The notes: generated by a model not told the origin, from the letters alone. Shown: positions 36,735 to 48,477, numbered from the stretch's first letter. The stretch: 64,000 bases of DNA from Escherichia coli (GCF_013122565.1 NZ_CP053258.1); one strand, 5' to 3'. Made by a program: numbers and translations.

Positions 36735-37427
36735 CTAGTGATAACCACGCGCGGTCATAAAATCCGTAATCGCTTTTTCTGCATCAACCAGCACCTGTTC
36801 CAGTGGCTGATTGGCATCGATATCAACCAGTTGTGCACCACCAAAGGTTAACTGTGGCGTTATGGCAATCTTCCTCGCCAGCGATTCCCGTTTATGGTCG
36901 GGTTTACGCGCGCAGGCAACTTCAAGGTCAACATTGAGTTTGATGACCAGATCAGGCTTATGGCTCGCCATCCAGTGAAACGCTTTACGTTCCTGGCTTG
37001 CCAGCCATGAGACAAAACGACTACCTTCAACGTTAGGTGGGAACACCGTACCATCGTAAGCGCCAGGAATTTGGTCCTGAGGATAACGGTCGGTTAGAAC
37101 AATTAACCCGCGACGACGACAGGCAAGCATATGACGAAAGCGCAGTAAGCGACGGGCGACAAACGCTGTAATTACCAGCGCCGGAACTGGTCCTGGCAAT
37201 TTTTTTGCTGTTTTCACCTGATTTCGTTCAATTGTTTTATGTAAGGATTTTCCCATTAACGGTAATTTTGTCACTGCACGACCGACATTTCCGGCCTGTT
37301 TTCCTAAATGAACTCTTTCGGCAGCACCATATTTTTCGACAACGGTAATGAGATGTTCACACACCGTTGACTTGCCTGAACCATCGCTACCAATAACGGC
37401 AATTAATGGAGGTGTTATTGACTGCAT
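36735..37427 (-). CDS. yghT: P-loop NTPase (nucleoside/nucleotide-kinase-like fold) YghT
   Basis: 230 aa; Walker [10 protein letters not shown]. Confidence 0.85.
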
Positions 37428-37600
37428 GAATATATCCTTTAATTTAAATATTCATCCAAAATATTTATTTGGTTAATATGTTTTGATGAAAGCGTAAATC
37501 AGGTCAATGTCATAATTAACCATTGTCACAATAAGGTTGAACGGATATTCTGAGCACGGACCACGTAATATTCAATACATTATTTACTGCCGGGTTTTTC

Positions 37601-38314
37601 GTGAATCAACGTAATATGTCAATAATTAATTCCACGCCAGTGCGTGTTATTGCCATTGTAGGATGTGATGGTTCAGGTAAATCGACCCTCACGGCAAGCC
37701 TGGTAAATGAACTGGCAGCAAGAATGCCAACAGAACGCATTTATCTCGGGCAATCGTCCGGGCGAATTGGCGAATGGATTTCACAGCTCCCTGTTATTGG
37801 CGCACCTTTTGGGCGTTATCTGCGAAGTAAAGCGGCACATGTGCACGAAAAGCCCTCAACACCGCCTGGCAATATTACTGCGCTGGTTATCTATCTGCTT
37901 TCCTGCTGGCGGGCGTACAAGTTTCGCAAAATGTTGTGTAGAAGCCAGCAAGGCCATCTGCTCATCACCGACCGCTACCCGCAGGTTGAAGTGCCGGGTT
38001 TTCGCTTTGATGGCCCGCAATTGGCAAAAACCACGGGCGGTAACGGTTGGATAAAAATGTTAAGGCAGCGCGAGCTGAAGCTGTACCAATGGATGGCGTC
38101 TTATTTGCCCGTATTGTTGATTCGTCTTGGCATTGATGAACAAACCGCGTTTGCGCGTAAACCTGACCACCAACTGGCAGCGTTACAGGAAAAAATCGCC
38201 GTTACGCCGCAACTGACGTTCAACGGTGCCAGGATCCTTGAACTGGATGGTCGGCAACCAGCCGATGAAATTCTGCAAGCGTCACTACGCGCAATTCACG
38301 CCGCGCTTTCCTGA
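37601..38314 (+). CDS. yghS: P-loop NTPase YghS (paralogue of YghT/YghR)
   Basis: 237 aa; Walker A GCDGSGKST; shared ITDRYPQ motif. Confidence 0.85.
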   Translation: MNQRNMSIINSTPVRVIAIVGCDGSGKSTLTASLVNELAARMPTERIYLGQSSGRIGEWISQLPVIGAPFGRYLRSKAAHVHEKPSTPPGNITALVIYLLSCWRAYKFRKMLCRSQQGHLLITDRYPQVEVPGFRFDGPQLAKTTGGNGWIKMLRQRELKLYQWMASYLPVLLIRLGIDEQTAFARKPDHQLAALQEKIAVTPQLTFNGARILELDGRQPADEILQASLRAIHAALS

Positions 38315-38345
38315 TCACCAAAATGGATAGGGGATGATTTAACGA

Positions 38346-39104
38346 ATGGATGCACTACAAACACAAACTGTTAATAGTACAACCGCGCCGCAGCCCAACT
38401 ACATTCCGGGGCTGATTGCGGTGGTCGGGTGTGATGGCACCGGTAAATCCACACTGACCACTGACCTGGTGAAATCGCTGCAACAACACTGGCAAACTGA
38501 GCGGCGCTATCTGGGGCTGCTCTCGGGCGAAGACGGCGACAAAATCAAACGATTGCCGTTGGTTGGTGTCTGGCTCGAACGGCGACTGGCGGCCAAATCC
38601 TCGAAAACCCAAAGCATGAAAACCAAATCTCCAGCGCTATGGGCGGCGGTGATTATGTACTGCTTTTCGCTGCGAAGAATGGCGAATCTACGCAAGGTTC
38701 AGCGACTGGCGCAAAGTGGCGTTCTGGTGGTCAGCGATCGCTTCCCGCAGGCTGAAATTTCGGGCTTTTATTATGACGGACCGGGGATCGGCGTCGAACG
38801 TGCGACCGGGAAAATCAGCATGTTTCTGGCGCAGCGCGAACGGCGTTTATACCAAAAAATGGCGCAATACCGTCCTGAATTAATCATTCGTTTGGGGATT
38901 GATATTGATACTGCCATCTCCCGCAAGCCTGACCATGACTATGCCGAGCTGCAGGACAAAATCGGCGTCATGTCGACGATTGGCTATAACGGCACAAAAA
39001 TTCTTGAGATTGATTCCAGAGCGCCCTACAGCGAAGTGCTGGAACAGGCACAGAAGGCGGTTTCTCTGGTTGCCATCGTTTCTGACCGCCGAAGTTTAAC
39101 TTAA
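38346..39104 (+). CDS. yghR: P-loop NTPase YghR (paralogue of YghS/YghT)
   Basis: 252 aa; Walker A GCDGTGKST; VSDRFPQ motif. Confidence 0.85.
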   Translation: MDALQTQTVNSTTAPQPNYIPGLIAVVGCDGTGKSTLTTDLVKSLQQHWQTERRYLGLLSGEDGDKIKRLPLVGVWLERRLAAKSSKTQSMKTKSPALWAAVIMYCFSLRRMANLRKVQRLAQSGVLVVSDRFPQAEISGFYYDGPGIGVERATGKISMFLAQRERRLYQKMAQYRPELIIRLGIDIDTAISRKPDHDYAELQDKIGVMSTIGYNGTKILEIDSRAPYSEVLEQAQKAVSLVAIVSDRRSLT

Positions 39105-39149
39105 GGCTGGCGGGATACTTTTTACTATCAACGATAAGGTCAGGCTGAA

Positions 39150-40499
39150 TTGGCGGGTTTTAACATCAAACATTGGTTTGCAGATGGCGCGTTTCGCACC
39201 ATTATTCGCAATAGCGCCTGGTTAGGCTCCAGTAATGTCGTGAGCGCCTTGCTGGGTCTGTTGGCGCTCTCGTGTGCCGGTAAAGGGATGACGCCCGCCA
39301 TGTTTGGCGTACTGGTGATTGTGCAATCGTACGCCAAGTCGATCAGCGATTTTATTAAGTTTCAGACATGGCAACTGGTGGTTCAGTACGGAACACCAGC
39401 ATTAACCAACAATAATCCGCAGCAATTCCGCAATGTCGTCTCATTTTCCTTCTCGCTGGATATCGTCAGCGGCGCGGTGGCGATTGTCGGCGGCATTGCC
39501 TTACTGCCATTCCTTTCCCATTCATTAGGTCTGGATGACCAAAGTTTTTGGCTGGCAGCGCTCTATTGCACGCTCATTCCTTCAATGGCTTCCTCCACGC
39601 CGACCGGCATTCTGCGTGCGGTAGATCGCTTCGATCTAATTGCTGTACAGCAAGCGACGAAACCTTTTCTGCGCGCAGCGGGGAGCGTCGTAGCCTGGTA
39701 TTTTGACTTTGGTTTTGCGGGTTTTGTTATCGCCTGGTACGCATCGAATCTGGTTGGCGGCACCATGTACTGGTGGTTTGCCGCGCGCGAATTACGTCGC
39801 AGAAATATCCATAACGCCTTCAAATTGAATCTGTTTGAGTCTGCCCGACACATTAAAGGCGCGTGGAGTTTTGTCTGGTCAACCAACATTGCCCACTCCA
39901 TCTGGTCGGCGCGTAACTCGTGCAGCACAGTGCTGGTGGGGATCGTGTTAGGACCCGCTGCCGCCGGGTTATTTAAAATCGCCATGACATTCTTCGATGC
40001 CGCCGGAACGCCAGCGGGTTTGCTGGGTAAAAGTTTTTACCCAGAGGTGATGCGTTTAGATCCGCGCACCACCAGACCGTGGTTGTTAGGTGTGAAGTCC
40101 GGTTTACTGGCGGGCGGAATTGGTATTCTGGTGGCACTCGCGGTGTTGATCGTCGGCAAGCCGCTCATTTCACTGGTGTTTGGTGTGAAGTATCTCGAAG
40201 CGTATGACCTGATTCAGGTGATGCTGGGCGCAATTGTGATTTCGATGCTGGGCTTCCCGCAGGAGTCATTGCTATTGATGGCGGGAAAACAGCGCGCTTT
40301 TCTCGTGGCGCAAACCATCGCCTCAATCGGCTACATCGTATTGCTGTTCATGTTCTGTCATCTGTTTGGCGTGCTGGGAGCAGCGTTTGCTTACTTCGGT
40401 GGGCAATGTCTGGATGTGGTGCTCTCGCTAATTCCAACCTTAAAGGCATTTTTTCAGCGCCATTCCTTGCTTTATAACGCAGCCGGAGAGAAATCCTGA
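39150..40499 (+). CDS. yghQ: Polytopic inner membrane protein, MOP/Wzx-like flippase superfamily (YghQ); start uncertain
   Basis: Long hydrophobic ORF; the track start at 39150 is TTG; first in-frame ATG near 39288; stop overlaps the start of the next gene. Confidence 0.7.
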   Translation: MAGFNIKHWFADGAFRTIIRNSAWLGSSNVVSALLGLLALSCAGKGMTPAMFGVLVIVQSYAKSISDFIKFQTWQLVVQYGTPALTNNNPQQFRNVVSFSFSLDIVSGAVAIVGGIALLPFLSHSLGLDDQSFWLAALYCTLIPSMASSTPTGILRAVDRFDLIAVQQATKPFLRAAGSVVAWYFDFGFAGFVIAWYASNLVGGTMYWWFAARELRRRNIHNAFKLNLFESARHIKGAWSFVWSTNIAHSIWSARNSCSTVLVGIVLGPAAAGLFKIAMTFFDAAGTPAGLLGKSFYPEVMRLDPRTTRPWLLGVKSGLLAGGIGILVALAVLIVGKPLISLVFGVKYLEAYDLIQVMLGAIVISMLGFPQESLLLMAGKQRAFLVAQTIASIGYIVLLFMFCHLFGVLGAAFAYFGGQCLDVVLSLIPTLKAFFQRHSLLYNAAGEKS

Positions 40500-41323
40500 T
40501 GATGAGAAAATATTTCCCGCTTGAGGCGAGCGAGCGTCTATTTGTTGCGATTGAAGAAGATGATGTCGTTGATGCACAGGTCAGTTTGCCGCCGACTATC
40601 GCACTAAGTTGTACCACCGAAATCATCCATGATAATTACGCGTTATGCCTGCAATTCTGGCTCAATGGCGTCAATCGCCAGGAGTTACTGCGTTTAATAT
40701 GCAAACAGGCCAAAGGCGATGAGCTGACTGCTGATGAGCGCAAACAATTTAAATACATGCGAGCGCGCTACAAGCACCTGCGTTTTGCGCAACGGCTGTA
40801 TTTAAAAAAGCATCAGGCCGGATTTTTATTCGGCAAAACGACCGTTTTTCTGGGACGTTTTCAGGACGGATTTCGTAACGGTAAGAAAAATATTGTGTCG
40901 TATTACGGCAACCTGTTACGAATTTATTTAAGCTCTCCGGTCTGGTCGTTGGTGAACTATTCATTACGCCATAGCCAGTTAGAAAGCGTAAGCGGTTTTA
41001 TTGCCTATCGGCAACAGCAAATGCATACCCTGAAAGAGATTATTGCCAAACCGCGACTAACCGGCAGGGAATTTCATGATGTGCGAAAAATCATCAGCCA
41101 GCAGGTTTCTTATTACGACACCTTAAGATCGCTTGATCCTGAAAATAAAGAGGCGTTACAGATTTCCCGCTTCCTCGCCGCCATTAATGGCCTGATGGGG
41201 GATAAACACGACGACATGGTGGCGGATGATATGGAAAACCGCCAGTCGTATGATGCACCGGTGGCGCTGGATAGCGATATTCGTCAGCGCTTAGAGCTGC
41301 TGATTTCGCGTTTTCCGCTATAA
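40499..41323 (+). CDS. Hypothetical protein (no recognisable domain), translationally coupled to yghQ
   Basis: 274 aa; ATG overlaps the yghQ TGA (ATGA-type junction). Confidence 0.55.
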   Translation: MMRKYFPLEASERLFVAIEEDDVVDAQVSLPPTIALSCTTEIIHDNYALCLQFWLNGVNRQELLRLICKQAKGDELTADERKQFKYMRARYKHLRFAQRLYLKKHQAGFLFGKTTVFLGRFQDGFRNGKKNIVSYYGNLLRIYLSSPVWSLVNYSLRHSQLESVSGFIAYRQQQMHTLKEIIAKPRLTGREFHDVRKIISQQVSYYDTLRSLDPENKEALQISRFLAAINGLMGDKHDDMVADDMENRQSYDAPVALDSDIRQRLELLISRFPL

Positions 41324-41331
41324 CCGGAGCA

Positions 41332-41895
41332 ATGATGTCATCTCGTTTGATTATTGCGCTGATTATCATGCTCTTAGCCCCGGGTGTGCAGGCACACAAT
41401 TTCGTCACTGGCAAAACGGTTACCCCCGTTTATATCCAGGAAGGCGGCGAGCTGCTTCTGAATAGCGACGACGAAATTCACTACCAAAAGTGGAACAGCA
41501 CACAATTGGCGGGAAAAGTTCGCATTATTCAGTATATCGCCGGGCGTAAGTCGGCGAAGAAAAAGAACTCACTGTTAATTAAAGCGGTTGAAGCGGCAAA
41601 CTTTCCGCAGGATCGTTTTCAGCCCACAACCATCGTGAACACCGATGATGCCATCTTTGGTACCGGCTATTTTGTCGTTGGCAAAATCGAAAAAAATAAA
41701 CGCCGCTATCCGTGGGCGCAATTCGTTATTGACGGCAATGGACTGGGACGCATTGCCTGGCGCTTGCCGGAGCAGAGTTCAACCATTCTGGTGCTGAATA
41801 AAGCCGGGCAAATTCAGTGGGCAAAGGACGGCAGCCTGACGCCGGAAGAGGTAGATCATGTCATTGCGTTGGCGCAGAAACTGATCAATGAATAA
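41332..41895 (+). CDS. Periplasmic protein, YtfJ-like family (tentative)
   Basis: 187 aa; signal peptide LIIALIIMLLAPGVQA; size and composition resemble the YtfJ family. Confidence 0.5.
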   Translation: MMSSRLIIALIIMLLAPGVQAHNFVTGKTVTPVYIQEGGELLLNSDDEIHYQKWNSTQLAGKVRIIQYIAGRKSAKKKNSLLIKAVEAANFPQDRFQPTTIVNTDDAIFGTGYFVVGKIEKNKRRYPWAQFVIDGNGLGRIAWRLPEQSSTILVLNKAGQIQWAKDGSLTPEEVDHVIALAQKLINE

Positions 41896-41925
41896 AAAAC
41901 TCAAAGGATTGAGGGCGTTAGTGAG

Positions 41926-42996
41926 ATGAAGCTGGTTGAACACTACATCATGCGTGGTACGCGCCGTTTGGTGCTGATTATCGTCGGTTTTCTGATCTTT
42001 ATTTTCGCCAGCTACTCCGCACAGCGTTATCTGACCGAAGCGGCAAATGGGACATTAGCACTTGATGTTGTGCTGGATATCGTTTTTTACAAGGTGCTGA
42101 TTGCACTGGAGATGTTGTTACCTGTTGGACTGTATGTGTCAGTTGGCGTGACGCTAGGGCAGATGTATACCGACTCGGAAATCACAGCTATCTCTGCGGC
42201 GGGGGGCAGTCCGGGACGCTTGTACAAAGCCGTTCTTTATCTGGCGATACCGCTAAGTATTTTTGTCACCCTTCTGTCGATGTATGGTCGTCCGTGGGCT
42301 TATGCGCAGATTTATCAACTGGAGCAGCAGTCGCAGTCGGAGCTGGATGTTCGCCAGTTGCGGGCAAAGAAATTTAACACTAACGATAACGGACGAATGA
42401 TCCTTTCGCAGACGGTTGATCAGGATAATAATCGCCTGACTGACGCGCTGATTTATACTTCTACTGCCAATCGAACCCGCATTTTCCGCGCCCGTTCGGT
42501 TGATGTGGTTGACCCATCTCCCGAGAAACCGACCGTTATGTTGCACAACGGCACCGCCTATCTTCTCGATCATCAGGGGCGTGACGACAACGAACAGATC
42601 TACCGTAATCTGCAATTACATCTGAATCCGCTGGATCAAAGCCCTAATGTCAAACGCAAAGCGAAATCGGTCACGGAGCTGGCGCGCTCCGTCTTTCCAG
42701 CCGATCATGCCGAACTGCAATGGCGACAAAGCCGTGGCCTGACCGCATTGTTGATGGCGCTGCTGGCCATTTCATTAAGTCGGGTAAAACCGCGGCAGGG
42801 GCGATTTTCAACGTTATTGCCACTGACGTTGCTGTTTATTGCCATTTTTTATGGCGGCGACGTCTGCCGTACGCTGGTGGCTAACGGCGCGATTCCTCTC
42901 ATTCCTGGTTTGTGGTTAGTACCCGGACTCATGCTAATGGGCCTGCTGATGCTGGTTGCACGCGACTTCACTTTGCTGCAGAAATTTTCCCGATGA
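41926..42996 (+). CDS. LptF/LptG-family (YjgP/YjgQ) permease, LptF-like
   Basis: 356 aa; LGQMYTDSEIT and KPRQGRFSTLLP resemble LptF LGKLYTESEIT / NPRQGRVLSMLP; TM-periplasmic domain-TM architecture. Confidence 0.7.
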   Translation: MKLVEHYIMRGTRRLVLIIVGFLIFIFASYSAQRYLTEAANGTLALDVVLDIVFYKVLIALEMLLPVGLYVSVGVTLGQMYTDSEITAISAAGGSPGRLYKAVLYLAIPLSIFVTLLSMYGRPWAYAQIYQLEQQSQSELDVRQLRAKKFNTNDNGRMILSQTVDQDNNRLTDALIYTSTANRTRIFRARSVDVVDPSPEKPTVMLHNGTAYLLDHQGRDDNEQIYRNLQLHLNPLDQSPNVKRKAKSVTELARSVFPADHAELQWRQSRGLTALLMALLAISLSRVKPRQGRFSTLLPLTLLFIAIFYGGDVCRTLVANGAIPLIPGLWLVPGLMLMGLLMLVARDFTLLQKFSR

Positions 42997-44072
42997 ATGT
43001 TTTCAGTCGCTATTTAATCCGTCATCTCTTTCTCGGTTTTGCCGCCGCCGCAGGGCTATTGCTGCCGCTTTTTACCACCTTCAACCTGATTAACGAACTG
43101 GATGATGTCAGCCCGGGCGGTTATCGCTGGACTCAGGCGGTGCTGGTGGTGCTGATGACCTTACCGCGTACACTGGTCGAACTTTCGCCGTTTATCGCAT
43201 TATTGGGAGGGATTGTTGGCCTGGGGCAGTTATCGAAAAACAGTGAGCTTACCGCCATTCGCAGCACTGGGTTTTCTATCTTCCGTATTGCACTGGTGGC
43301 GCTGGTTGCCGGGATATTGTGGACTGTTTCGTTAGGCGCGATAGATGAGTGGGTGGCGTCGCCGTTGCAGCAACAGGCGCTGCAAATCAAATCGACCGCC
43401 ACCGCGTTGGGGGAGGACGATGACATTACCGGCAATATGCTGTGGGCCAGGCGCGGCAATGAATTTGTGACGGTGAAATCGCTGAACGAGCAGGGCCAGC
43501 CGGTGGGCGTGGAGATATTTCATTATCGCGACGATCTCTCGCTCGAATCCTACATTTATGCACGCAGTGCCACCATTAAAGACGACAAAATGTGGAGCCT
43601 GCATGGTGTGAATCATAAAAAATGGCTTAACGGTAAAGAAACGCTGGAAACATCAGATAATCTTGCCTGGCAATCGGCCTTCACCAGTATGGATCTTGAA
43701 GAGCTATCGATGCCGGGGAATACTTTTTCTGTCCGTCAGCTTAATCATTACATCCATTATTTGCAGGAAACCGGGCAACCCAGCAGCGAATACCGCCTTG
43801 CACTGTGGGAAAAACTGGGGCAACCCATCCTGACCCTGGCGATGATTTTGCTGGCTGTGCCGTTTACCTTTAGCGCCCCGCGCTCGCCAGGGATGGGTAG
43901 CCGTCTCGCTGTAGGCGTCATCGTTGGCTTACTCACCTGGATCAGCTATCAAATCATGGTCAATCTGGGGTTGCTATTTGCGTTGAGCGCACCTGTTACC
44001 GCGCTCGGTTTACCGGTAGCGTTTGTACTGGTGGCGTTGAGCCTGGTGTATTGGTATGACAGACAACATTAA
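42993..44072 (+). CDS. LptF/LptG-family permease, LptG-like
   Basis: 359 aa from ATG overlapping the upstream stop; NHYIHYLQETGQ...RSPGMGSRL resembles LptG NYVKYLKSSGQ...RSVPMGVRV. Confidence 0.7.
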   Translation: MNVFSRYLIRHLFLGFAAAAGLLLPLFTTFNLINELDDVSPGGYRWTQAVLVVLMTLPRTLVELSPFIALLGGIVGLGQLSKNSELTAIRSTGFSIFRIALVALVAGILWTVSLGAIDEWVASPLQQQALQIKSTATALGEDDDITGNMLWARRGNEFVTVKSLNEQGQPVGVEIFHYRDDLSLESYIYARSATIKDDKMWSLHGVNHKKWLNGKETLETSDNLAWQSAFTSMDLEELSMPGNTFSVRQLNHYIHYLQETGQPSSEYRLALWEKLGQPILTLAMILLAVPFTFSAPRSPGMGSRLAVGVIVGLLTWISYQIMVNLGLLFALSAPVTALGLPVAFVLVALSLVYWYDRQH

Positions 44073-44106
44073 ACCCGCCGTGGCGCAACACCACGGCGGG
44101 CTCACA

Positions 44107-45195
44107 TTACTGCTTCAGAGTAGCAAATGCCTGAATGATGGTATCGATTTGCTCACGACTGTGGGCAGCGTTTACGCTACAGCGCAGCAGCGTGATGCCT
44201 GCAGGCGCGGCAGGTGGCAGGATAAGATTCACATAAACGCCCAGCGAAATAAGCTCGCGCCAGATGCGTAAACCTTCCTCTTTCGAACCGATTATTACCG
44301 GCACTACCGGACTAATATGTGAACTTAACTCATAACCCAGTTTTTGCAGACCGTCATACAGATGGTTGGCGTTATCCATCAGTTTTTGCCGCAGCTCTGG
44401 TTGTGTGGCAATGGTTCTTAACGACGAGCGCACGGTCGCAATGCAGGACGGAGAAGGAGAGGCGGTAAAAATATACGGGCGGCTGCCGTAGCGCAGCACT
44501 TCCATCGCTTCCGAACCGACAGCAAAACCGCCAATCGAGGCCAGACTTTTACTGAAGGTACCAACGATAATATCCACATCATCTTCAACGCCAACGGCTT
44601 CAGCCAGTCCGCGCCCCGTTGCGCCTAACACGCCAAACGAATGCGCTTCATCGACAATCAAATAACCACCGAGACGACGTTTGATATCAACAATTTCCGC
44701 TAACGGCGCAACGTCACCGAGCATGCTGTAGATACCCTCAACGATGATAATCGCCTCTTTCGCCCGTTCACCGAGGCGAACCATGCGCCGTTCCAGATCT
44801 TTAGCATCGTTATGGCGGAAACGAATAATTTCCGCGCCACCGAGAGAACAGGCGTCATAAATACTGGCGTGGCTGTCGGCATCCAGTAACACCACGGCGT
44901 TATGGTCGGCAAGTGCGCTGATGACGCCTAAATTAGCGGTATAACCGGTTGAAAAAACGATAGCGGTAGGGCGATTGAAAAACTCGGCAATCTCTTTCTC
45001 TAACGCCAGGTGCGGCGCATAACTGCCGTTTGCCATACGAGAACCGGTGGTGCCGGTGCCTTGGGCCGCTAACGCTGCCTGACCTTCGGTGGCGGAATAC
45101 ACTTCATCAATACAGGTGCCAAACGGTGTTAACCCGTTGTCACTAAATTGCAGTCGCTCGCCAGCAAGGCGCGCATATTTATCGTATAGCCCCAT
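44107..45195 (-). CDS. PLP-dependent alpha-oxoamine synthase (BioF/Kbl/serine palmitoyltransferase family)
   Basis: 362 aa; DEAHSFGVLGATGRG and GTFSKSLASIGGF (PLP-lysine motif). Confidence 0.75.
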   Translation of the reverse strand: MGLYDKYARLAGERLQFSDNGLTPFGTCIDEVYSATEGQAALAAQGTGTTGSRMANGSYAPHLALEKEIAEFFNRPTAIVFSTGYTANLGVISALADHNAVVLLDADSHASIYDACSLGGAEIIRFRHNDAKDLERRMVRLGERAKEAIIIVEGIYSMLGDVAPLAEIVDIKRRLGGYLIVDEAHSFGVLGATGRGLAEAVGVEDDVDIIVGTFSKSLASIGGFAVGSEAMEVLRYGSRPYIFTASPSPSCIATVRSSLRTIATQPELRQKLMDNANHLYDGLQKLGYELSSHISPVVPVIIGSKEEGLRIWRELISLGVYVNLILPPAAPAGITLLRCSVNAAHSREQIDTIIQAFATLKQ

Positions 45196-45443
45196 TATTT
45201 ATTCTCCAGCCATGGAAGTAGAGTTTCCATTAATTGCGCAGGGGTTTTGACATCCAGCAGAATATTAATAGGAATGGAAATATCGAATCTGTCTTCCAGC
45301 ATCATTAAGAGATCCATCACTTTGATCGACTCCAGGCCAAGATCGTTGACGAGATCGCTGTCGGGCTTAATTTCCACACCGTTTTCGACCAAATCCTGTA
45401 AACAGGAAAGGATGTAATCCATTACTATTTCACGATTTACCAT
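45195..45443 (-). CDS. Acyl carrier protein
   Basis: 82 aa; phosphopantetheine attachment-like motif DLGLESIK; stop overlaps the downstream start. Confidence 0.7.
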   Translation of the reverse strand: MVNREIVMDYILSCLQDLVENGVEIKPDSDLVNDLGLESIKVMDLLMMLEDRFDISIPINILLDVKTPAQLMETLLPWLENK

Positions 45444-45474
45444 AGAAACGTTAACACACCTTTAAACAAGACAA

Positions 45475-46389
45475 TCAAAATAGCCCGTTGCGTAATGCGT
45501 GTTCCAGGCTAATCCCGGGAAACCAATTAATATCTTCAGAAATACGGTTATTATTTGCCGACCAGTCGGCGTGGGTTAATTCACGAATTTTCGAGCGGGT
45601 CAGCATAGGTTCTTTACCTGCCAGGCGACTCAACGCAGTACTGATATCCGCAAGGCAGGTGAGTACCGGCAGAGGAATGCCAACCATCCGCACAGAACCA
45701 CAACGGGCTTCGGCGGCAAGCTGTCGTACGCGTTGCCAGTCATAGCCGCCAGCGACGCCATCGCATAATTCATAGGTTTGCGTCTGTACAGTTTCGGCGC
45801 TTAACCACTGACCCACGGCTTGCGCGAAATCGGTGACGTGCAGGAAAGAGAGCTGTGTATCTGGCGCACCAAGTCGTGGCAGCAGGCCGCGCAGCATCCA
45901 GTCAAACAGCGGTTTTAACTCTTTATCGCCTGGACCATACACGGCTGTCGGGCGAAAAACGCCCAGCGTAATTTCATCAGCCATTGCAGTCAGCCGTTGT
46001 TCGGCGACGTGTTTGGAATTTGCGTACCAGGAGAGTTCGGGATGGCGCGCCGCCAGCGAAGAGATAAACAGAAAACGTTGGCAAAAGCCGCTCTCTTTTG
46101 CCGCTTGCATCAGGCGCAGGCTGCCGTCAACGTTACAGTGGGTAAAAATCTCTTCTTTGTGTCCGCGCACTTGCCCGGCGCAATGGACCACCGCGCTGGC
46201 TCCGGCAACCAGTTCGCTAAGTGAATGAGTATCTTCCAGCGAACCGCGCACCCAGGTGAGATTGTCATTGACGTGAGCGCGGGCAGTACGCGTCAATGCG
46301 CGAACGTGAAAGCCGCGGGCGAGCAGGTTATCGATAATATATTTACCGATAAACCCGGTAGCGCCCGTCACCGCGACAGTTTGATTCAT
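45475..46389 (-). CDS. NAD(P)-dependent epimerase/dehydratase-family reductase
   Basis: ~304 aa from Met MNQTVAVTGATGFIGKYI (Rossmann GxTGxxG); ATG overlaps the stop of the upstream ligase gene; the ORF track extends to 46599. Confidence 0.7.
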   Translation of the reverse strand: MNQTVAVTGATGFIGKYIIDNLLARGFHVRALTRTARAHVNDNLTWVRGSLEDTHSLSELVAGASAVVHCAGQVRGHKEEIFTHCNVDGSLRLMQAAKESGFCQRFLFISSLAARHPELSWYANSKHVAEQRLTAMADEITLGVFRPTAVYGPGDKELKPLFDWMLRGLLPRLGAPDTQLSFLHVTDFAQAVGQWLSAETVQTQTYELCDGVAGGYDWQRVRQLAAEARCGSVRMVGIPLPVLTCLADISTALSRLAGKEPMLTRSKIRELTHADWSANNNRISEDINWFPGISLEHALRNGLF

Positions 46390-48107
46390 GCCAGGGATTC
46401 CTGCACATGAAGACTGGCAGCATAAGCCTTCTGATAACGTTTTTTCGCTTCCGCACGGGCAGGCTTGCCGGAGGACGTTCGGGGAATACTGTGGGGCGGC
46501 AACAGATCGATAGCCGCGGTCACGCCAAATTCGCTTTGGATCCGTGCCGCCAGCGCGTGGATAAGCTGCCCGCGACGTTCTTCGTCGCTGATCCGACACT
46601 GGATCTGCAAAATGATTTTTTCCTGGGCGGTAACAAAAGCAATCGCATCGCCAGAATGAATTTCCGGTTCCTGTTCCGCAATATATTCAATATCCTGCGG
46701 CCAGATATTACGGCCACGAATAATAATCAGATCTTTAATGCGTCCGGTGACATACAGATAACCGTCCAGCAGATAACCGAGGTCGCCGGTGTCTAACCAG
46801 CCCGTCGCGGCAATCTCGTCTTGCGAAGCCTGGTCGCCAAAGTAACCGCTCATCAGGCTAGGGCCGGAGATGCAAATATGGCCTACCACACGTTCCGCGA
46901 CAGGTATACCTGCTTCATTGCGGATTTCAATGCCATGTTCCGGCAACGCTTTGCCGCAGTTGACGAAAGTCGATACGGCGCGTGTCTCTGCACCCGGCGC
47001 GACGGCTTTACCCTGATATTCGAGGATGTCGCGATCCACTTCGTTAACCACAACCCCGGAGGCTTCATCAGAGAAGCTGACAGCCAGCGCATTTTCTGCC
47101 AGTCCGTAGCACGGCATGAAAGTTTTATTGTCAAAGTTAACCTGACGGAAACATTCAGCGAATTGATGGAGTTGTTCTGCGGAGATGGGTTCTGCACCAA
47201 TACCAGCGACGCGCCAGGAGGAAAGATCCAGTTCAGCGAGATCTTTTTCATTCACGCGGCGCTGGCACAATTCATAGCCAAACGGCGGCGCAACGGAAAC
47301 GGTGCCGCGATTTTTACTGATCAATTTAAGCCATTGCAGAGGACGCATGGCAAAATCCTGAGTGCGCAAATAATCTACTGAAAGCTGCGTGGCGACAGGG
47401 GTCAGGAGAAAGCCGACCAGTCCCATATCATGGTAGAAAGGCAGCCAGGAGACGCAGCGGTCGCCAGGGCGTAATTTAATGCCATCGTGGCTTATAGCAC
47501 GTAGATTAGCCATCACTTCGCGATGGGTGATAATGACGCCACGGGGAAAACGGGTGCTGCCGGAGGTGTACTGGAGGTAGGCGATATCGTTCGGAACTGG
47601 ACGCTGGAGCGCAACATCGGCTTCCGGTAATGCCTTAAACCAGGCGTGGCTTAAAACATGTAATTCGGGATTGTTATGCGTCGCGGCATTGACCAGTGGC
47701 AACCACTCATCACCAGTGATAATGGCTGCGGGCTGGCAACTTGCCAGTAAACCCTGCAGTTTGGCGCTCCAGGAATCCCGCTGACCGACGCCCATTGGAA
47801 TCGCCAACGGGACGGCGACTAAGCCGGCATACTGGCAGGCAAAAAAAGCCTCTACGAACCCGCTACTGGTTTCGGCAATCAGCGCCACGCGATCGCCTTT
47901 TTTCAGGTTCAGCGATAACAACCGCTTCGCACCAGCTTCGGCACGCGCTTTTAACGTCTGATATTCCAGTTGATCTTCAAGTTGGCAACGTCTGTCATAA
48001 AAATTCATTCCAGCGCTACTCAGAGCGGCGTAGTCCAAAGCATCAACCAGCGTTGGAAAATCGGCATAGCGCATAGGTAGGGAATGCGTAAAGATTTTAT
48101 TAGACAT
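46386..48107 (-). CDS. Fatty acyl-AMP ligase / acyl-ACP synthetase (adenylate-forming superfamily)
   Basis: ~573 aa from Met MSNKIFTHSL; AMP-binding motifs YTSGSTRFPRGV, GYGLAE; C-terminal SSGKPAR. Confidence 0.75.
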   Translation of the reverse strand: MSNKIFTHSLPMRYADFPTLVDALDYAALSSAGMNFYDRRCQLEDQLEYQTLKARAEAGAKRLLSLNLKKGDRVALIAETSSGFVEAFFACQYAGLVAVPLAIPMGVGQRDSWSAKLQGLLASCQPAAIITGDEWLPLVNAATHNNPELHVLSHAWFKALPEADVALQRPVPNDIAYLQYTSGSTRFPRGVIITHREVMANLRAISHDGIKLRPGDRCVSWLPFYHDMGLVGFLLTPVATQLSVDYLRTQDFAMRPLQWLKLISKNRGTVSVAPPFGYELCQRRVNEKDLAELDLSSWRVAGIGAEPISAEQLHQFAECFRQVNFDNKTFMPCYGLAENALAVSFSDEASGVVVNEVDRDILEYQGKAVAPGAETRAVSTFVNCGKALPEHGIEIRNEAGIPVAERVVGHICISGPSLMSGYFGDQASQDEIAATGWLDTGDLGYLLDGYLYVTGRIKDLIIIRGRNIWPQDIEYIAEQEPEIHSGDAIAFVTAQEKIILQIQCRISDEERRGQLIHALAARIQSEFGVTAAIDLLPPHSIPRTSSGKPARAEAKKRYQKAYAASLHVQESLA

Positions 48108-48477
48108 ATACACCACGAAAAAATTGGATATCAAAAATAAAATGACAATAATGCGGTGGATTATATAGGCATAAAAGATAAATGAGATAGTATTTTCATC
48201 AGTGTGAAAATGAACATTGATTTAAATAATAGGTTTGGTTTTGTTGTTTTTATTGTGAATGATATTTAATTTATGAATATATTAAGAAGAAGCCTTGTCC
48301 GGTCGCCTTAAATCGACAAAAGGCATTGTGGCGCTTCTGTGTAGTCTCTGACCTTATCTTAATCATTAATAAATACTATTTATTCTTTATTTGTATTCAT
48401 TGGGTTGATTATTAAGATGCCGTTCGTTGCTGTTGTAACCTGTTTGTCACCGTTAATTATTTGTTATCCACAGAGAT
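48108..48477. promoter_or_regulatory. AT-rich divergent intergenic control region between the ligase operon and yghO
   Basis: 370 bp of strongly AT-rich sequence with A/T tracts between divergent gene starts. Confidence 0.5.

What the first reader, a model, noticed from the sequence alone, without database searches (positions are those of the whole stretch)
39150..44072. Second LptF/LptG-like permease pair with a YtfJ-like periplasmic protein, a flippase-like protein and an unknown 274-aa protein, all translationally coupled
Genes at 41926..42996 and 42993..44072 are clear paralogues of the LPS-transport permeases LptF and LptG (shared motifs LGxxYTxSEIT, KPRQGR, RSPGMG) but sit outside the essential lptFG locus and have no adjacent LptB-type ATPase. 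They follow yghQ (MOP/Wzx-like membrane protein), an unknown 274-aa protein and a signal-peptide-bearing YtfJ-like protein, with overlapping stop/start codons at 40497..40501 and 42993..42996 that imply an operon. The arrangement converges on the lipid biosynthesis operon, suggesting an export or extraction route for a non-LPS lipid. As far as I recall this block is absent from K-12.
Basis: partly seen in the sequence, partly recalled or inferred. Interest (0 to 1): 0.75.

Follow-up and report, generated by a model that had tools for sequence, protein, structure and literature searches.

The report
E. coli sphingolipid-locus LptF2/LptG2 export genes

Summary
yghQ (39150-40499), a 274-aa gene, a YtfJ paralogue, and a second lptF/lptG pair (41926-44072) lie head to tail. 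They converge on aasR-cerR-acpR-spt, with yghO (ceramide synthase) beyond.

- **Not the canonical pair.** The pair is 28-29% identical to LptF/LptG, which are present in 5425 of 5426 complete E. coli genomes. The island is intact in 4053 of 5426, and IS5 replaces it in K-12.
- **Conserved linkage.** All 13 genes stay linked in 44 Enterobacterales species genomes despite at least four gene orders. dN/dS is 0.03-0.14.
- **No dedicated ATPase.** No LptA, LptB or LptC homologue is nearby. The LptB-coupling glutamates are kept, and several LPS-phosphate contacts are replaced by acidic residues.
- **Already published.** A 2026 preprint shows that Caulobacter LptF2/LptG2 are needed when anionic sphingolipid is made and that they bind housekeeping LptB. 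Its Figure 2B draws the E. coli UTI89 locus. E. coli BL21 Spt/AcpR/AasR make 3-oxosphinganine.

New here:
- The 274-aa protein has a CHAD (polyphosphate-binding) fold.
- Across sphingolipid-producing Proteobacteria it travels with YghQ and the YghR/S/T P-loop proteins.
- YtfJ2 is a cysteine-free thioredoxin-fold protein.
- This window's spt carries a private 28-codon deletion.

The parts
36735..37427 (-). yghT, a P-loop (dTMP-kinase-like) protein transcribed divergently from yghS
   Evidence: Weak NCBIfam dTMP-kinase hits. RefSeq names it yghT. Conserved with the module in 70 of the 79 loci examined.
37601..38314 (+). yghS, a P-loop protein and probably the first gene of the plus-strand unit
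   Evidence: A homologue with 56% identity lies next to a distant CHAD-like gene in L006.
38346..39104 (+). yghR, a P-loop protein
39150..40499 (+). Full-length yghQ, a MOP-superfamily (Wzx-like) membrane protein and candidate inner-membrane flippase
   Evidence: Pfam Polysacc_synt 2.7e-8 and Polysacc_synt_3 1.3e-7. NCBIfam MOP flippase 1.4e-8. Several hydrophobic segments. Truncated by IS5 in K-12.
40499..41323 (+). 274-aa cytoplasmic all-helical CHAD-fold protein (named 'Ybl138' in UniProt)
41332..41895 (+). YtfJ2, a periplasmic YtfJ-family paralogue with a signal peptide
41926..42996 (+). lptF2, an LptF-type permease paralogue
   Evidence: TIGR04407 at 318 bits. Pfam 9e-54 over the full length. 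29% identical to K-12 LptF. Coupling-helix Glu conserved in 41 of 41.
42993..44072 (+). lptG2, an LptG-type permease paralogue with a 4-nt ATGA overlap with lptF2
   Evidence: TIGR04408 at 308 bits. Pfam 7e-69. 28% identical to K-12 LptG. Positions equivalent to K34, K40 and K41 are never basic.
44070..44104 (.). 16-bp GC-rich hairpin between the convergent lptG2 and spt stop codons, probably a bidirectional terminator
44107..45195 (-). spt (serine palmitoyltransferase), here carrying a private in-frame 28-codon deletion
   Evidence: NF047599 at 535 bits. Alignment with intact copies. The deletion junction is absent from 5426 genomes.
45195..45443 (-). acpR, the specialised acyl carrier protein
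   Evidence: Annotation. PP-binding domain in orthologues. PMC9386255.
45475..46389 (-). cerR/epi, an NAD-dependent epimerase/dehydratase-family ceramide reductase
   Evidence: PMC9386255.
46386..48074 (-). aasR, a fatty acyl-AMP ligase (acyl-AcpR synthetase). Start as in RefSeq; the longest ORF runs to 48134.
   Evidence: PMC9386255.
48478..49620 (+). yghO, the acyl-CoA N-acyltransferase (aca / bacterial ceramide synthase)
   Evidence: PMC9386255 Fig. 9 legend.

Best explanation
Window 36.7-49.6 kb is the E. coli sphingolipid island, and the five genes of the finding are its probable transport half.

1. aasR, acpR and spt, then yghO and cerR, build a ceramide at the inner membrane. This is shown in part for the E. 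coli BL21 enzymes.
2. YghQ, a MOP-family membrane protein, probably flips the lipid or its precursor to the periplasmic leaflet. This is inferred.
3. LptF2 and LptG2 form the membrane part of an ABC extractor with no ATPase of its own. It borrows the housekeeping LptB dimer, pulls the sphingolipid out of the inner membrane and hands it to the Lpt bridge. This is shown for the Caulobacter counterparts and inferred here.
4. The cytoplasmic CHAD-fold protein works with the three P-loop proteins YghR/S/T, probably on a phosphate-rich head group or its donor. This is inferred from linkage and fold.
5. YtfJ2 is a periplasmic, non-redox thioredoxin-fold protein that accompanies LptF2/LptG2 only in Enterobacterales. 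Its role is unknown, possibly head-group binding or hand-off.
For: Identity and family:
- Gene identities and HMM scores are above curated cut-offs.
- The pair is a paralogue, not the canonical one.
- There is no LptA, LptB or LptC in the window and no LptB-like gene within the cluster in the related loci; a few loci carry unrelated ABC ATPases several kb away.

Conservation:
- The 13 genes are linked in 44 Enterobacterales species genomes in at least four gene orders. ytfJ2 is in 44 of 44 and lptG2 in 42 of 44. All gaps fall in truncated loci or beyond the 10-kb flank.
- dN/dS is 0.03-0.14 for all 13 genes.

Residues (LPS contact list from PMC6744409):
- Coupling-helix glutamates are conserved: LptF E84 in 41 of 41 and LptG E88 in 40 of 41. 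Their role is from my memory of the Lpt literature.
- LptF R33 and K317 and LptG K62 and R136 stay basic.
- LptG K34, K40 and K41 become N/D/T, E/D and D.

Literature:
- Caulobacter lptF2/G2/C2 can be deleted only when spt or cpgB is absent. F2 and G2 co-purify with each other and with LptB. Figure 2B draws the E. coli UTI89 locus.
- The E. coli BL21 AasR/AcpR/Spt trio makes 3-oxosphinganine, and yghO is assigned as aca.

CHAD fold. Linkage of CHAD with the P-loop proteins and YghQ outside Enterobacterales.
Against: - No paper I searched reports a sphingolipid from wild-type E. coli. BL21 carrying empty vectors showed no 3-oxosphinganine on TLC, so the island may be silent in the laboratory.
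- All transport evidence comes from Caulobacter, and I could not test orthology to its proteins.
- The E. coli island lacks the Caulobacter head-group genes (cpgABC and others), so the exported lipid is unknown.
- In Sphingomonadales and Acetobacteraceae, the YghQ/CHAD/P-loop module lies away from spt and next to a GT4 glycosyltransferase. It may therefore serve another glycolipid.
- In this window spt has lost 28 codons, including the NNYLGL motif. This strain may make no substrate at all.
Confidence: 0.7

Rival explanations
1. The yghS-to-lptG2 unit handles a different envelope glycolipid or polysaccharide-linked lipid, not the ceramide. An undecaprenyl-linked or glycosylated lipid would be flipped by YghQ and extracted by LptF2/LptG2. 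Its position next to spt in Enterobacterales would then be a secondary association.
For: - YghQ belongs to the MOP/Wzx family, whose usual substrates are undecaprenyl-PP-linked sugars (family knowledge).
- In 19 Sphingomonadales and 6 Acetobacteraceae loci the P-loop/YghQ/CHAD module has no spt within 10 kb.
- A GT4 glycosyltransferase lies beside it in Sphingobium L058 and in the metagenome contig L006.
Against: - The module's taxonomic range is almost only sphingolipid-producing lineages: Sphingomonadales, Acetobacteraceae, Zymomonas, Rhodanobacteraceae and spt-bearing Enterobacterales.
- In Rhodanobacteraceae the spt operon is inserted between the P-loop genes and yghQ.
- Sphingomonad sphingolipid genes are known to be scattered over the genome.
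- Sphingomonad sphingolipids are glycosylated, so a neighbouring GT4 fits a sphingolipid role.
Confidence: 0.15
2. The island is a silent or decaying accessory locus. In this strain in particular, LptF2/LptG2 have no substrate and no current function.
For: - The island is missing or partial in about a quarter of complete E. coli genomes and was removed by IS5 in K-12.
- spt here carries a private 28-codon deletion.
- No native product was seen in BL21.
Against: - All 13 ORFs are intact apart from that in-frame deletion.
- dN/dS is 0.03-0.14 against E. whittamii and Pseudocitrobacter.
- The cluster is retained across at least 14 enterobacterial genera.
Confidence: 0.1
3. LptF2/LptG2 are spare LPS permeases. 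They would export a modified LPS or lipid A variant under particular conditions, not a sphingolipid.
For: - Both score above the curated LptF and LptG equivalog cut-offs.
- Four cavity basic residues are retained.
Against: - Residues contacting the 4'-phosphate and inner core (LptG K40 and K41, LptF K322) and LptG K34 are replaced, with K40 and K41 invariably acidic. A K34E substitution is lethal in canonical LptG.
- The genes are linked to spt, not to lipid A or core genes.
- The Caulobacter genetics tie the paralogues to sphingolipid synthesis.
Confidence: 0.05

Closest known systems
Caulobacter crescentus LptF2/LptG2 (CCNA_01214/CCNA_01213; CC_1156/CC_1155) in the sphingolipid locus
   Same: - A second LptF/LptG pair encoded beside spt, acpR, cerR, aasR and bCerS.
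- No dedicated ATPase.
- A candidate flippase gene in the same locus.
- The preprint's Figure 2B draws the E. coli UTI89 locus alongside it and states that lptF2/G2 occur in many alpha- and gammaproteobacterial sphingolipid loci.
   Different: - E. coli has no LptC2; the preprint says LptC2 is restricted to Caulobacter.
- The island lacks the cpgABC-type head-group genes.
- It carries instead YghR/S/T, a CHAD-fold protein and a YtfJ paralogue.
- Nothing has been tested in E. coli.
Canonical E. coli LptB2FGC LPS extractor
   Same: - Same family and full-length architecture.
- Conserved coupling-helix glutamates.
- Part of the basic cavity cluster is retained.
   Different: - Only 28-29% identity.
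- Non-essential accessory locus, present in 75% of genomes against 100% for the canonical genes.
- LptG K34, K40, K41 and R133 and LptF K322 are replaced.
- Linked to spt rather than pepA.
CHAD domains (Ricinus CHAD 6qv5, Chlorobium 3e0s, Streptomyces PptA 6rn5, E. coli YgiF C-terminal domain)
   Same: - Conserved His, Arg and Lys residues.
- Homologues at 26-42% identity are annotated as CHAD in UniProt.
   Different: - The E. coli protein matches no Pfam family, CHAD included.
- No profile match to PDB CHAD sequences or to YgiF.
- It sits in a lipid locus rather than with CYTH, PPK or PPX genes.
- Polyphosphate binding is untested.
E. coli K-12 YtfJ (b4216), family PF09695
   Same: - 54% identity.
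- Signal peptide.
- Same family HMM.
   Different: - A second copy, embedded directly downstream of the CHAD gene in all 44 Enterobacterales loci.
- The function of either copy is unknown.

Membership tests
LptF/LptG permease family (PF03739; TIGR04407/TIGR04408) | Full-length match to the family HMM above the curated cut-off | tested here: met
   LptF2 scores 318 bits against a cut-off of 230 and LptG2 308 against 240. Pfam matches cover model positions 1-352 of 353.
LptF/LptG permease family (PF03739; TIGR04407/TIGR04408) | Coupling-helix glutamate that docks on LptB (LptF E84, LptG E88) | tested here: met
   Conserved in 41 of 41 LptF2 and 40 of 41 LptG2 sequences. The role of these residues is from my memory of the Lpt literature.
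Canonical LPS exporter LptFG | The genome's only, universally present pair (next to pepA) | tested here: not met
   Canonical lptFG is present in 5425 of 5426 genomes at another locus. The window pair is 28-29% identical to it.
Canonical LPS exporter LptFG | Basic residues contacting the lipid A 1'- and 4'-phosphates and the inner core (LptG K34, K40, K41, K62, R133, R136; LptF R33, K317, K322) | tested here: not met
   LptG K34 becomes N/D/T, K40 becomes E/D, K41 becomes D, R133 becomes L/Q, and LptF K322 becomes N. LptF R33 and K317(R) and LptG K62(R) and R136(K) are kept. Contact list from PMC6744409.
Sphingolipid-locus LptF2/LptG2 (Caulobacter type) | Second pair encoded with the spt/acpR/cerR/aasR/bCerS genes | tested here: met
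   Linkage is kept through at least four gene orders.
Sphingolipid-locus LptF2/LptG2 (Caulobacter type) | No dedicated LptB-type ATPase in the locus | tested here: met
   No LptB hit in the 64-kb window. The related loci show only unrelated ABC ATPases several kb away, in a few loci.
Sphingolipid-locus LptF2/LptG2 (Caulobacter type) | Physical complex with housekeeping LptB, and deletion tolerated only when sphingolipid synthesis is off | not testable with these tools
   Shown only for Caulobacter.
Sphingolipid-locus LptF2/LptG2 (Caulobacter type) | Phylogenetic orthology to CCNA_01213/CCNA_01214 | not tested
   I could not obtain Caulobacter or sphingomonad LptF/LptG sequences. The protein search returned only Enterobacterales at 64% identity or more. 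I rely on Figure 2B of the preprint.
MOP flippase superfamily (YghQ) | Match to the Polysacc_synt / MOP profiles and a polytopic membrane protein | tested here: met
   Pfam 2.7e-8 and 1.3e-7. NCBIfam MOP flippase 1.4e-8, far below its equivalog cut-off. Hydropathy shows multiple TM segments.
YtfJ_HI0045 (PF09695/TIGR01626) | Family HMM above cut-off, and secreted | tested here: met
   213 bits against a cut-off of 151. Pfam 3e-59. N-terminal hydrophobic signal ending in AHN.
Thiol-disulfide oxidoreductases of the thioredoxin fold (DsbE/ResA/peroxiredoxin) | Redox-active cysteine(s) at the N-terminus of helix 1 | tested here: not met
   [not shown]
CHAD domain (PF05235) | Match to the sequence profile | tested here: not met
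   No Pfam hit. The family profile finds no PDB CHAD sequence. hhalign against YgiF gives probability 0.4%.
CHAD domain (PF05235) | Two four-helix-bundle fold with conserved His and basic residues | tested here: met
   [not shown]
CHAD domain (PF05235) | Binds inorganic polyphosphate | not testable with these tools
   Needs a binding assay.

The most novel reading that the evidence does not exclude
The CHAD-fold protein, the YghR/S/T P-loop proteins and the MOP protein YghQ form an undescribed, conserved module. It would build and flip a phosphate-rich head group on bacterial sphingolipids in Sphingomonadales, Acetobacteraceae, Rhodanobacteraceae and Enterobacterales, and it is distinct from the Caulobacter CpgABC route. 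In Enterobacterales, YtfJ2 plus LptB2F2G2 would then export this new anionic or zwitterionic sphingolipid. Most natural E. coli would therefore carry a surface lipid that has never been observed.
Probability: 0.25. Interest if true: 0.7.

Novelty: already known. Interest (0 to 1): 0.4.

Why it matters
E. coli is the reference organism for outer-membrane biogenesis, yet K-12 has lost this island. Three quarters of sequenced E. coli carry a full ceramide pathway plus a dedicated Lpt-type extractor that would compete for LptB. If the island is expressed in the host, wild E. coli may display a sphingolipid that affects barrier function, polymyxin or bile sensitivity, and host signalling.

The core idea is already published: sphingolipid export through LptF2/LptG2 sharing LptB, with the E. 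coli locus drawn in the same figure. The scan therefore rediscovered it rather than discovering it.

What remains open, and is sharpened here:
- which lipid E. coli makes;
- what the CHAD-fold protein, YghR/S/T and YtfJ2 do.

Tried and rejected
- NCBIfam on eight long or fused CHAD-family proteins (P0124, P0251, P0254 and others) gave no family for the extra regions.
- Profile searches of the CHAD-like family against PDB sequences found nothing. hhalign against E. coli YgiF also found nothing. The CHAD link is therefore at the level of fold and annotation only.
- The 60-sequence alignment A2 was too diverse for the search for related loci, so I used the 16-sequence A3.
- YghS against PDB sequences gave only Walker-A-level hits, and YtfJ2 against PDB sequences gave nothing meaningful.
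- The protein search with LptG2 returned only Enterobacterales at 64% identity or more. I therefore could not build a phylogeny with the Caulobacter or sphingomonad pairs.
- K-12 literature on yghQ, yghR, yghS and yghT (chlorhexidine adaptation, silkworm screen) concerns the truncated remnant and is uninformative.
- I considered and rejected three ideas. The pair is not the canonical lptFG. YtfJ2 is not an LptC/LptA-like bridge protein, because it has a thioredoxin fold rather than a beta-jellyroll. YtfJ2 is not a redox enzyme, because it has no conserved cysteines.
- Consensus promoter and terminator counts are no better than shuffled sequence, apart from the strong 44070-44104 hairpin.

Full report
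**Observation.**
- yghQ: 39150-40499, 449 aa, TTG start
- a 274-aa ORF: 40499-41323
- a YtfJ-like ORF: 41332-41895
- lptF2: 41926-42996
- lptG2: 42993-44072

The overlaps TGATG (40497-40501) and ATGA (42993-42996) are real. The other two junctions are short gaps of 8 and 30 nt. 'All translationally coupled' is therefore only half true, although an operon remains likely. A 16-bp GC-rich hairpin at 44070-44104 separates the convergent stops of lptG2 and spt. RefSeq annotates the same genes in E. coli LHM10-1.

**Family assignments.**
- LptF2 and LptG2 exceed the curated NCBIfam equivalog cut-offs for LptF (318 against 230 bits) and LptG (308 against 240). They match Pfam LptF_LptG over its whole length.
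- The YtfJ-like protein matches TIGR01626/PF09695.
- YghQ gives modest Polysacc_synt/MOP matches.
- The 274-aa protein matches nothing.

**Not the canonical pair.** K-12 LptF and LptG (locus L003) are 29% and 28% identical to LptF2 and LptG2. Canonical lptFG DNA is found in 5425 of 5426 complete E. coli genomes. The 12-kb island is at least 80% covered in 4053 of 5426. In K-12 lineages an IS5 replaces everything between a truncated yghQ and yghO. No LptA, LptB or LptC homologue occurs in the 64-kb window. The related loci carry no LptB-like gene inside the cluster; seven hits to unrelated ABC ATPases lie several kb away in six loci.

**What the neighbourhood is.** The converging operon is aasR (fatty acyl-AMP ligase), cerR/epi, acpR and spt, and yghO lies beyond it.
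- PMC9386255 shows that E. coli BL21 AasR, AcpR and Spt together make 3-oxosphinganine. It assigns yghO as the N-acyltransferase 'aca'.
- PMC11324152 proposed that Caulobacter CC_1156, CC_1155 and CC_1168 (LptF2, LptG2, LptC2) and a flippase, CC_1166, transport sphingolipids.
- A 2026 preprint (10.64898/2026.04.12.717747) shows that these genes can be deleted only when spt or cpgB is absent. LptF2 and LptG2 co-purify with each other and with the single LptB. Its Figure 2B draws the E. coli UTI89 locus and states that lptF2/G2 occur in many alpha- and gammaproteobacterial sphingolipid loci, whereas lptC2 is restricted to Caulobacter.

**Co-occurrence.** I anchored on the 274-aa protein and fetched 79 species-level genome loci, then located homologues of all 13 island proteins in them.

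| Group | Loci | P-loops (any) | yghQ | CHAD gene | ytfJ2 | lptF2 / lptG2 | spt |
|---|---|---|---|---|---|---|---|
| Enterobacterales | 44 | 39 | 41 | 44 | 44 | 40 / 42 | 39 |
| Rhodanobacteraceae | 5 | 5 | 5 | 5 | 0 | 0 / 0 | 5 |
| Sphingomonadales | 19 | 17 | 17 | 19 | 0 | 0 / 0 | 0 |
| Acetobacteraceae | 6 | 4 | 4 | 6 | 0 | 0 / 0 | 0 |
| Other / MAGs | 5 | 5 | 1 | 5 | 0 | 0 / 0 | 0 |

- In Enterobacterales every absence falls in a truncated locus or beyond the 10-kb flank. The genera include Escherichia, Pseudocitrobacter, Hafnia, Sodalis, Pantoea, Serratia, Erwinia, Citrobacter, Mangrovibacter, Tatumella, Klebsiella indica, Cedecea, Rosenbergiella and Rahnella.
- The genes occur in at least four different orders, so the linkage survives rearrangement.
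- dN/dS between the window and E. whittamii is 0.03-0.14 for all 13 genes.

YtfJ2 and LptF2/LptG2 are thus an enterobacterial addition to a broader core module.

**Substrate clues.** I aligned K-12 LptF and LptG with 41 orthologues of each paralogue and read off the LPS contacts listed in PMC6744409.
- The coupling-helix glutamates are conserved, which fits use of LptB.
- LptF R33 and K317 (as R; this position is alignment-sensitive) and LptG K62 (as R) and R136 (as K/R) stay basic.
- LptG K34 is never basic. K40 and K41 are invariably acidic. R133, LptF K322 and Q248 are lost.
- The acyl-contact residue LptG I66 becomes D/N/E.

This argues against LPS as the substrate. It fits a smaller lipid with one anionic group, perhaps with a cationic or metal-bridged moiety. 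That last step is inference.

**The 274-aa protein.** About 207 clusters at 50% identity exist. A 21-sequence alignment gave an AlphaFold2 model with pLDDT 90.7, all helical.
- Foldseek against AFDB finds family members from Sphingomonas, Zymomonas, Acetobacter, Komagataeibacter and Gluconobacter, most annotated as 'CHAD domain-containing protein'.
- Sequence profiles do not connect it to CHAD.
- Family-wide invariant residues are R88, D123, H193, R196 and D238. Near-invariant residues are K92, R95, H105, K197 and H237.
- Distant homologues on metagenome contigs sit next to proteins 49-56% identical to YghT and YghS.

It is best described as a divergent stand-alone CHAD-fold protein that works with the YghR/S/T P-loop proteins. 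CHAD domains bind polyphosphate, from my knowledge of the literature, so a phosphate-rich ligand is plausible but untested.

**YtfJ2.**
- It is 54% identical to K-12 YtfJ.
- It has a signal peptide. The window's copy has no cysteine, and the mature parts of the orthologues share no conserved cysteine.
- The CxxC position is occupied by an invariant A-G-R..K loop.

It is therefore neither an LptC/LptA-type jellyroll nor a redox enzyme. It always follows the CHAD gene directly, even where lptF2G2 is divergent or distant.

**Caveats.**
- No paper I searched shows a sphingolipid in wild-type E. coli, and BL21 with empty vectors made no visible 3-oxosphinganine.
- The island lacks the Caulobacter head-group genes, so the product is unknown.
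- The spt of this window has an in-frame 28-codon deletion that removes EGRIGNKKVILAGTNNYLGLTFNHDAIA. Its junction occurs in none of 5426 complete genomes, so this strain may not make the lipid.
- I could not test orthology to the Caulobacter pair.

**Verdict.** It is a good rediscovery of the sphingolipid-locus LptF2/LptG2 system. The residual novelty lies in the CHAD-fold/P-loop/YghQ core module, in YtfJ2, and in the unidentified E. coli lipid.

Noticed in passing
window 45087/45088 (within spt, 44107-45195, minus strand): spt carries an in-frame 84-nt (28-codon) deletion that removes the conserved NNYLGL region. About 7 nt of microhomology lies at the junction. The junction 60-mer is absent from all 5426 complete E. 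coli genomes, so the deletion is strain-private or an assembly error, and it probably inactivates Spt.
   Followed up: yes
window 36735-41323; loci L045-L087: The P-loop proteins YghR/S/T, the MOP protein YghQ and the CHAD-fold protein form a core module. It also occurs in Rhodanobacteraceae (with the spt operon inserted), Sphingomonadales and Acetobacteraceae, all sphingolipid-producing lineages, without ytfJ2 or lptF2G2 nearby. Some loci carry two tandem CHAD copies (L045, L052, L084) or a fused tandem protein (P0124 in L006).
   Followed up: partly
L058 11721-12806 (minus strand); L006 3282-4376: A GT4-family glycosyltransferase lies beside the P-loop/YghQ/CHAD module in Sphingobium wenxiniae and on a metagenome contig. 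This hints at a glycosylated product in those organisms.
   Followed up: partly
window 40499-41895 and 42993-44072: Synonymous divergence from E. whittamii is about twice as high for the CHAD gene, ytfJ2 and lptG2 (dS 0.68-0.73) as for the flanking genes (0.26-0.35). G+C dips to 0.47-0.49 around 40-42 kb. Together these suggest recombination mosaicism inside the island.
   Followed up: no
window 44107-48134 (minus strand): The biosynthetic operon is also tightly packed. acpR and spt overlap by 1 nt at 45195, and aasR and cerR overlap by 4 nt at 46386-46389. The 374-aa ORF listed at 45475-46599 is an upstream extension of the 304-aa cerR.
   Followed up: partly
window 37428-37600 and 48135-48477: The two divergent intergenic regions (yghT/yghS and aasR/yghO) are AT-rich, with G+C of about 0.40-0.45. 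They are the likely control regions, and H-NS-type silencing could explain the lack of product in laboratory cultures. I did not test this.
   Followed up: no
L038 (NZ_SZPQ01000026.1, labelled Martelella alba): This contig, labelled as an alphaproteobacterium, carries the complete enterobacterial-type island at 61-75% protein identity to E. coli. It is probably contamination or a mislabelled assembly.
   Followed up: no
proteins P0294 and P0032 (E. coli): Some E. coli records hold chimeric gene products that join type II secretion domains (GspC, GspM) to LptG2 or to the CHAD-fold protein. This suggests deletions that fuse the island to the nearby gsp cluster in some strains.
   Followed up: no
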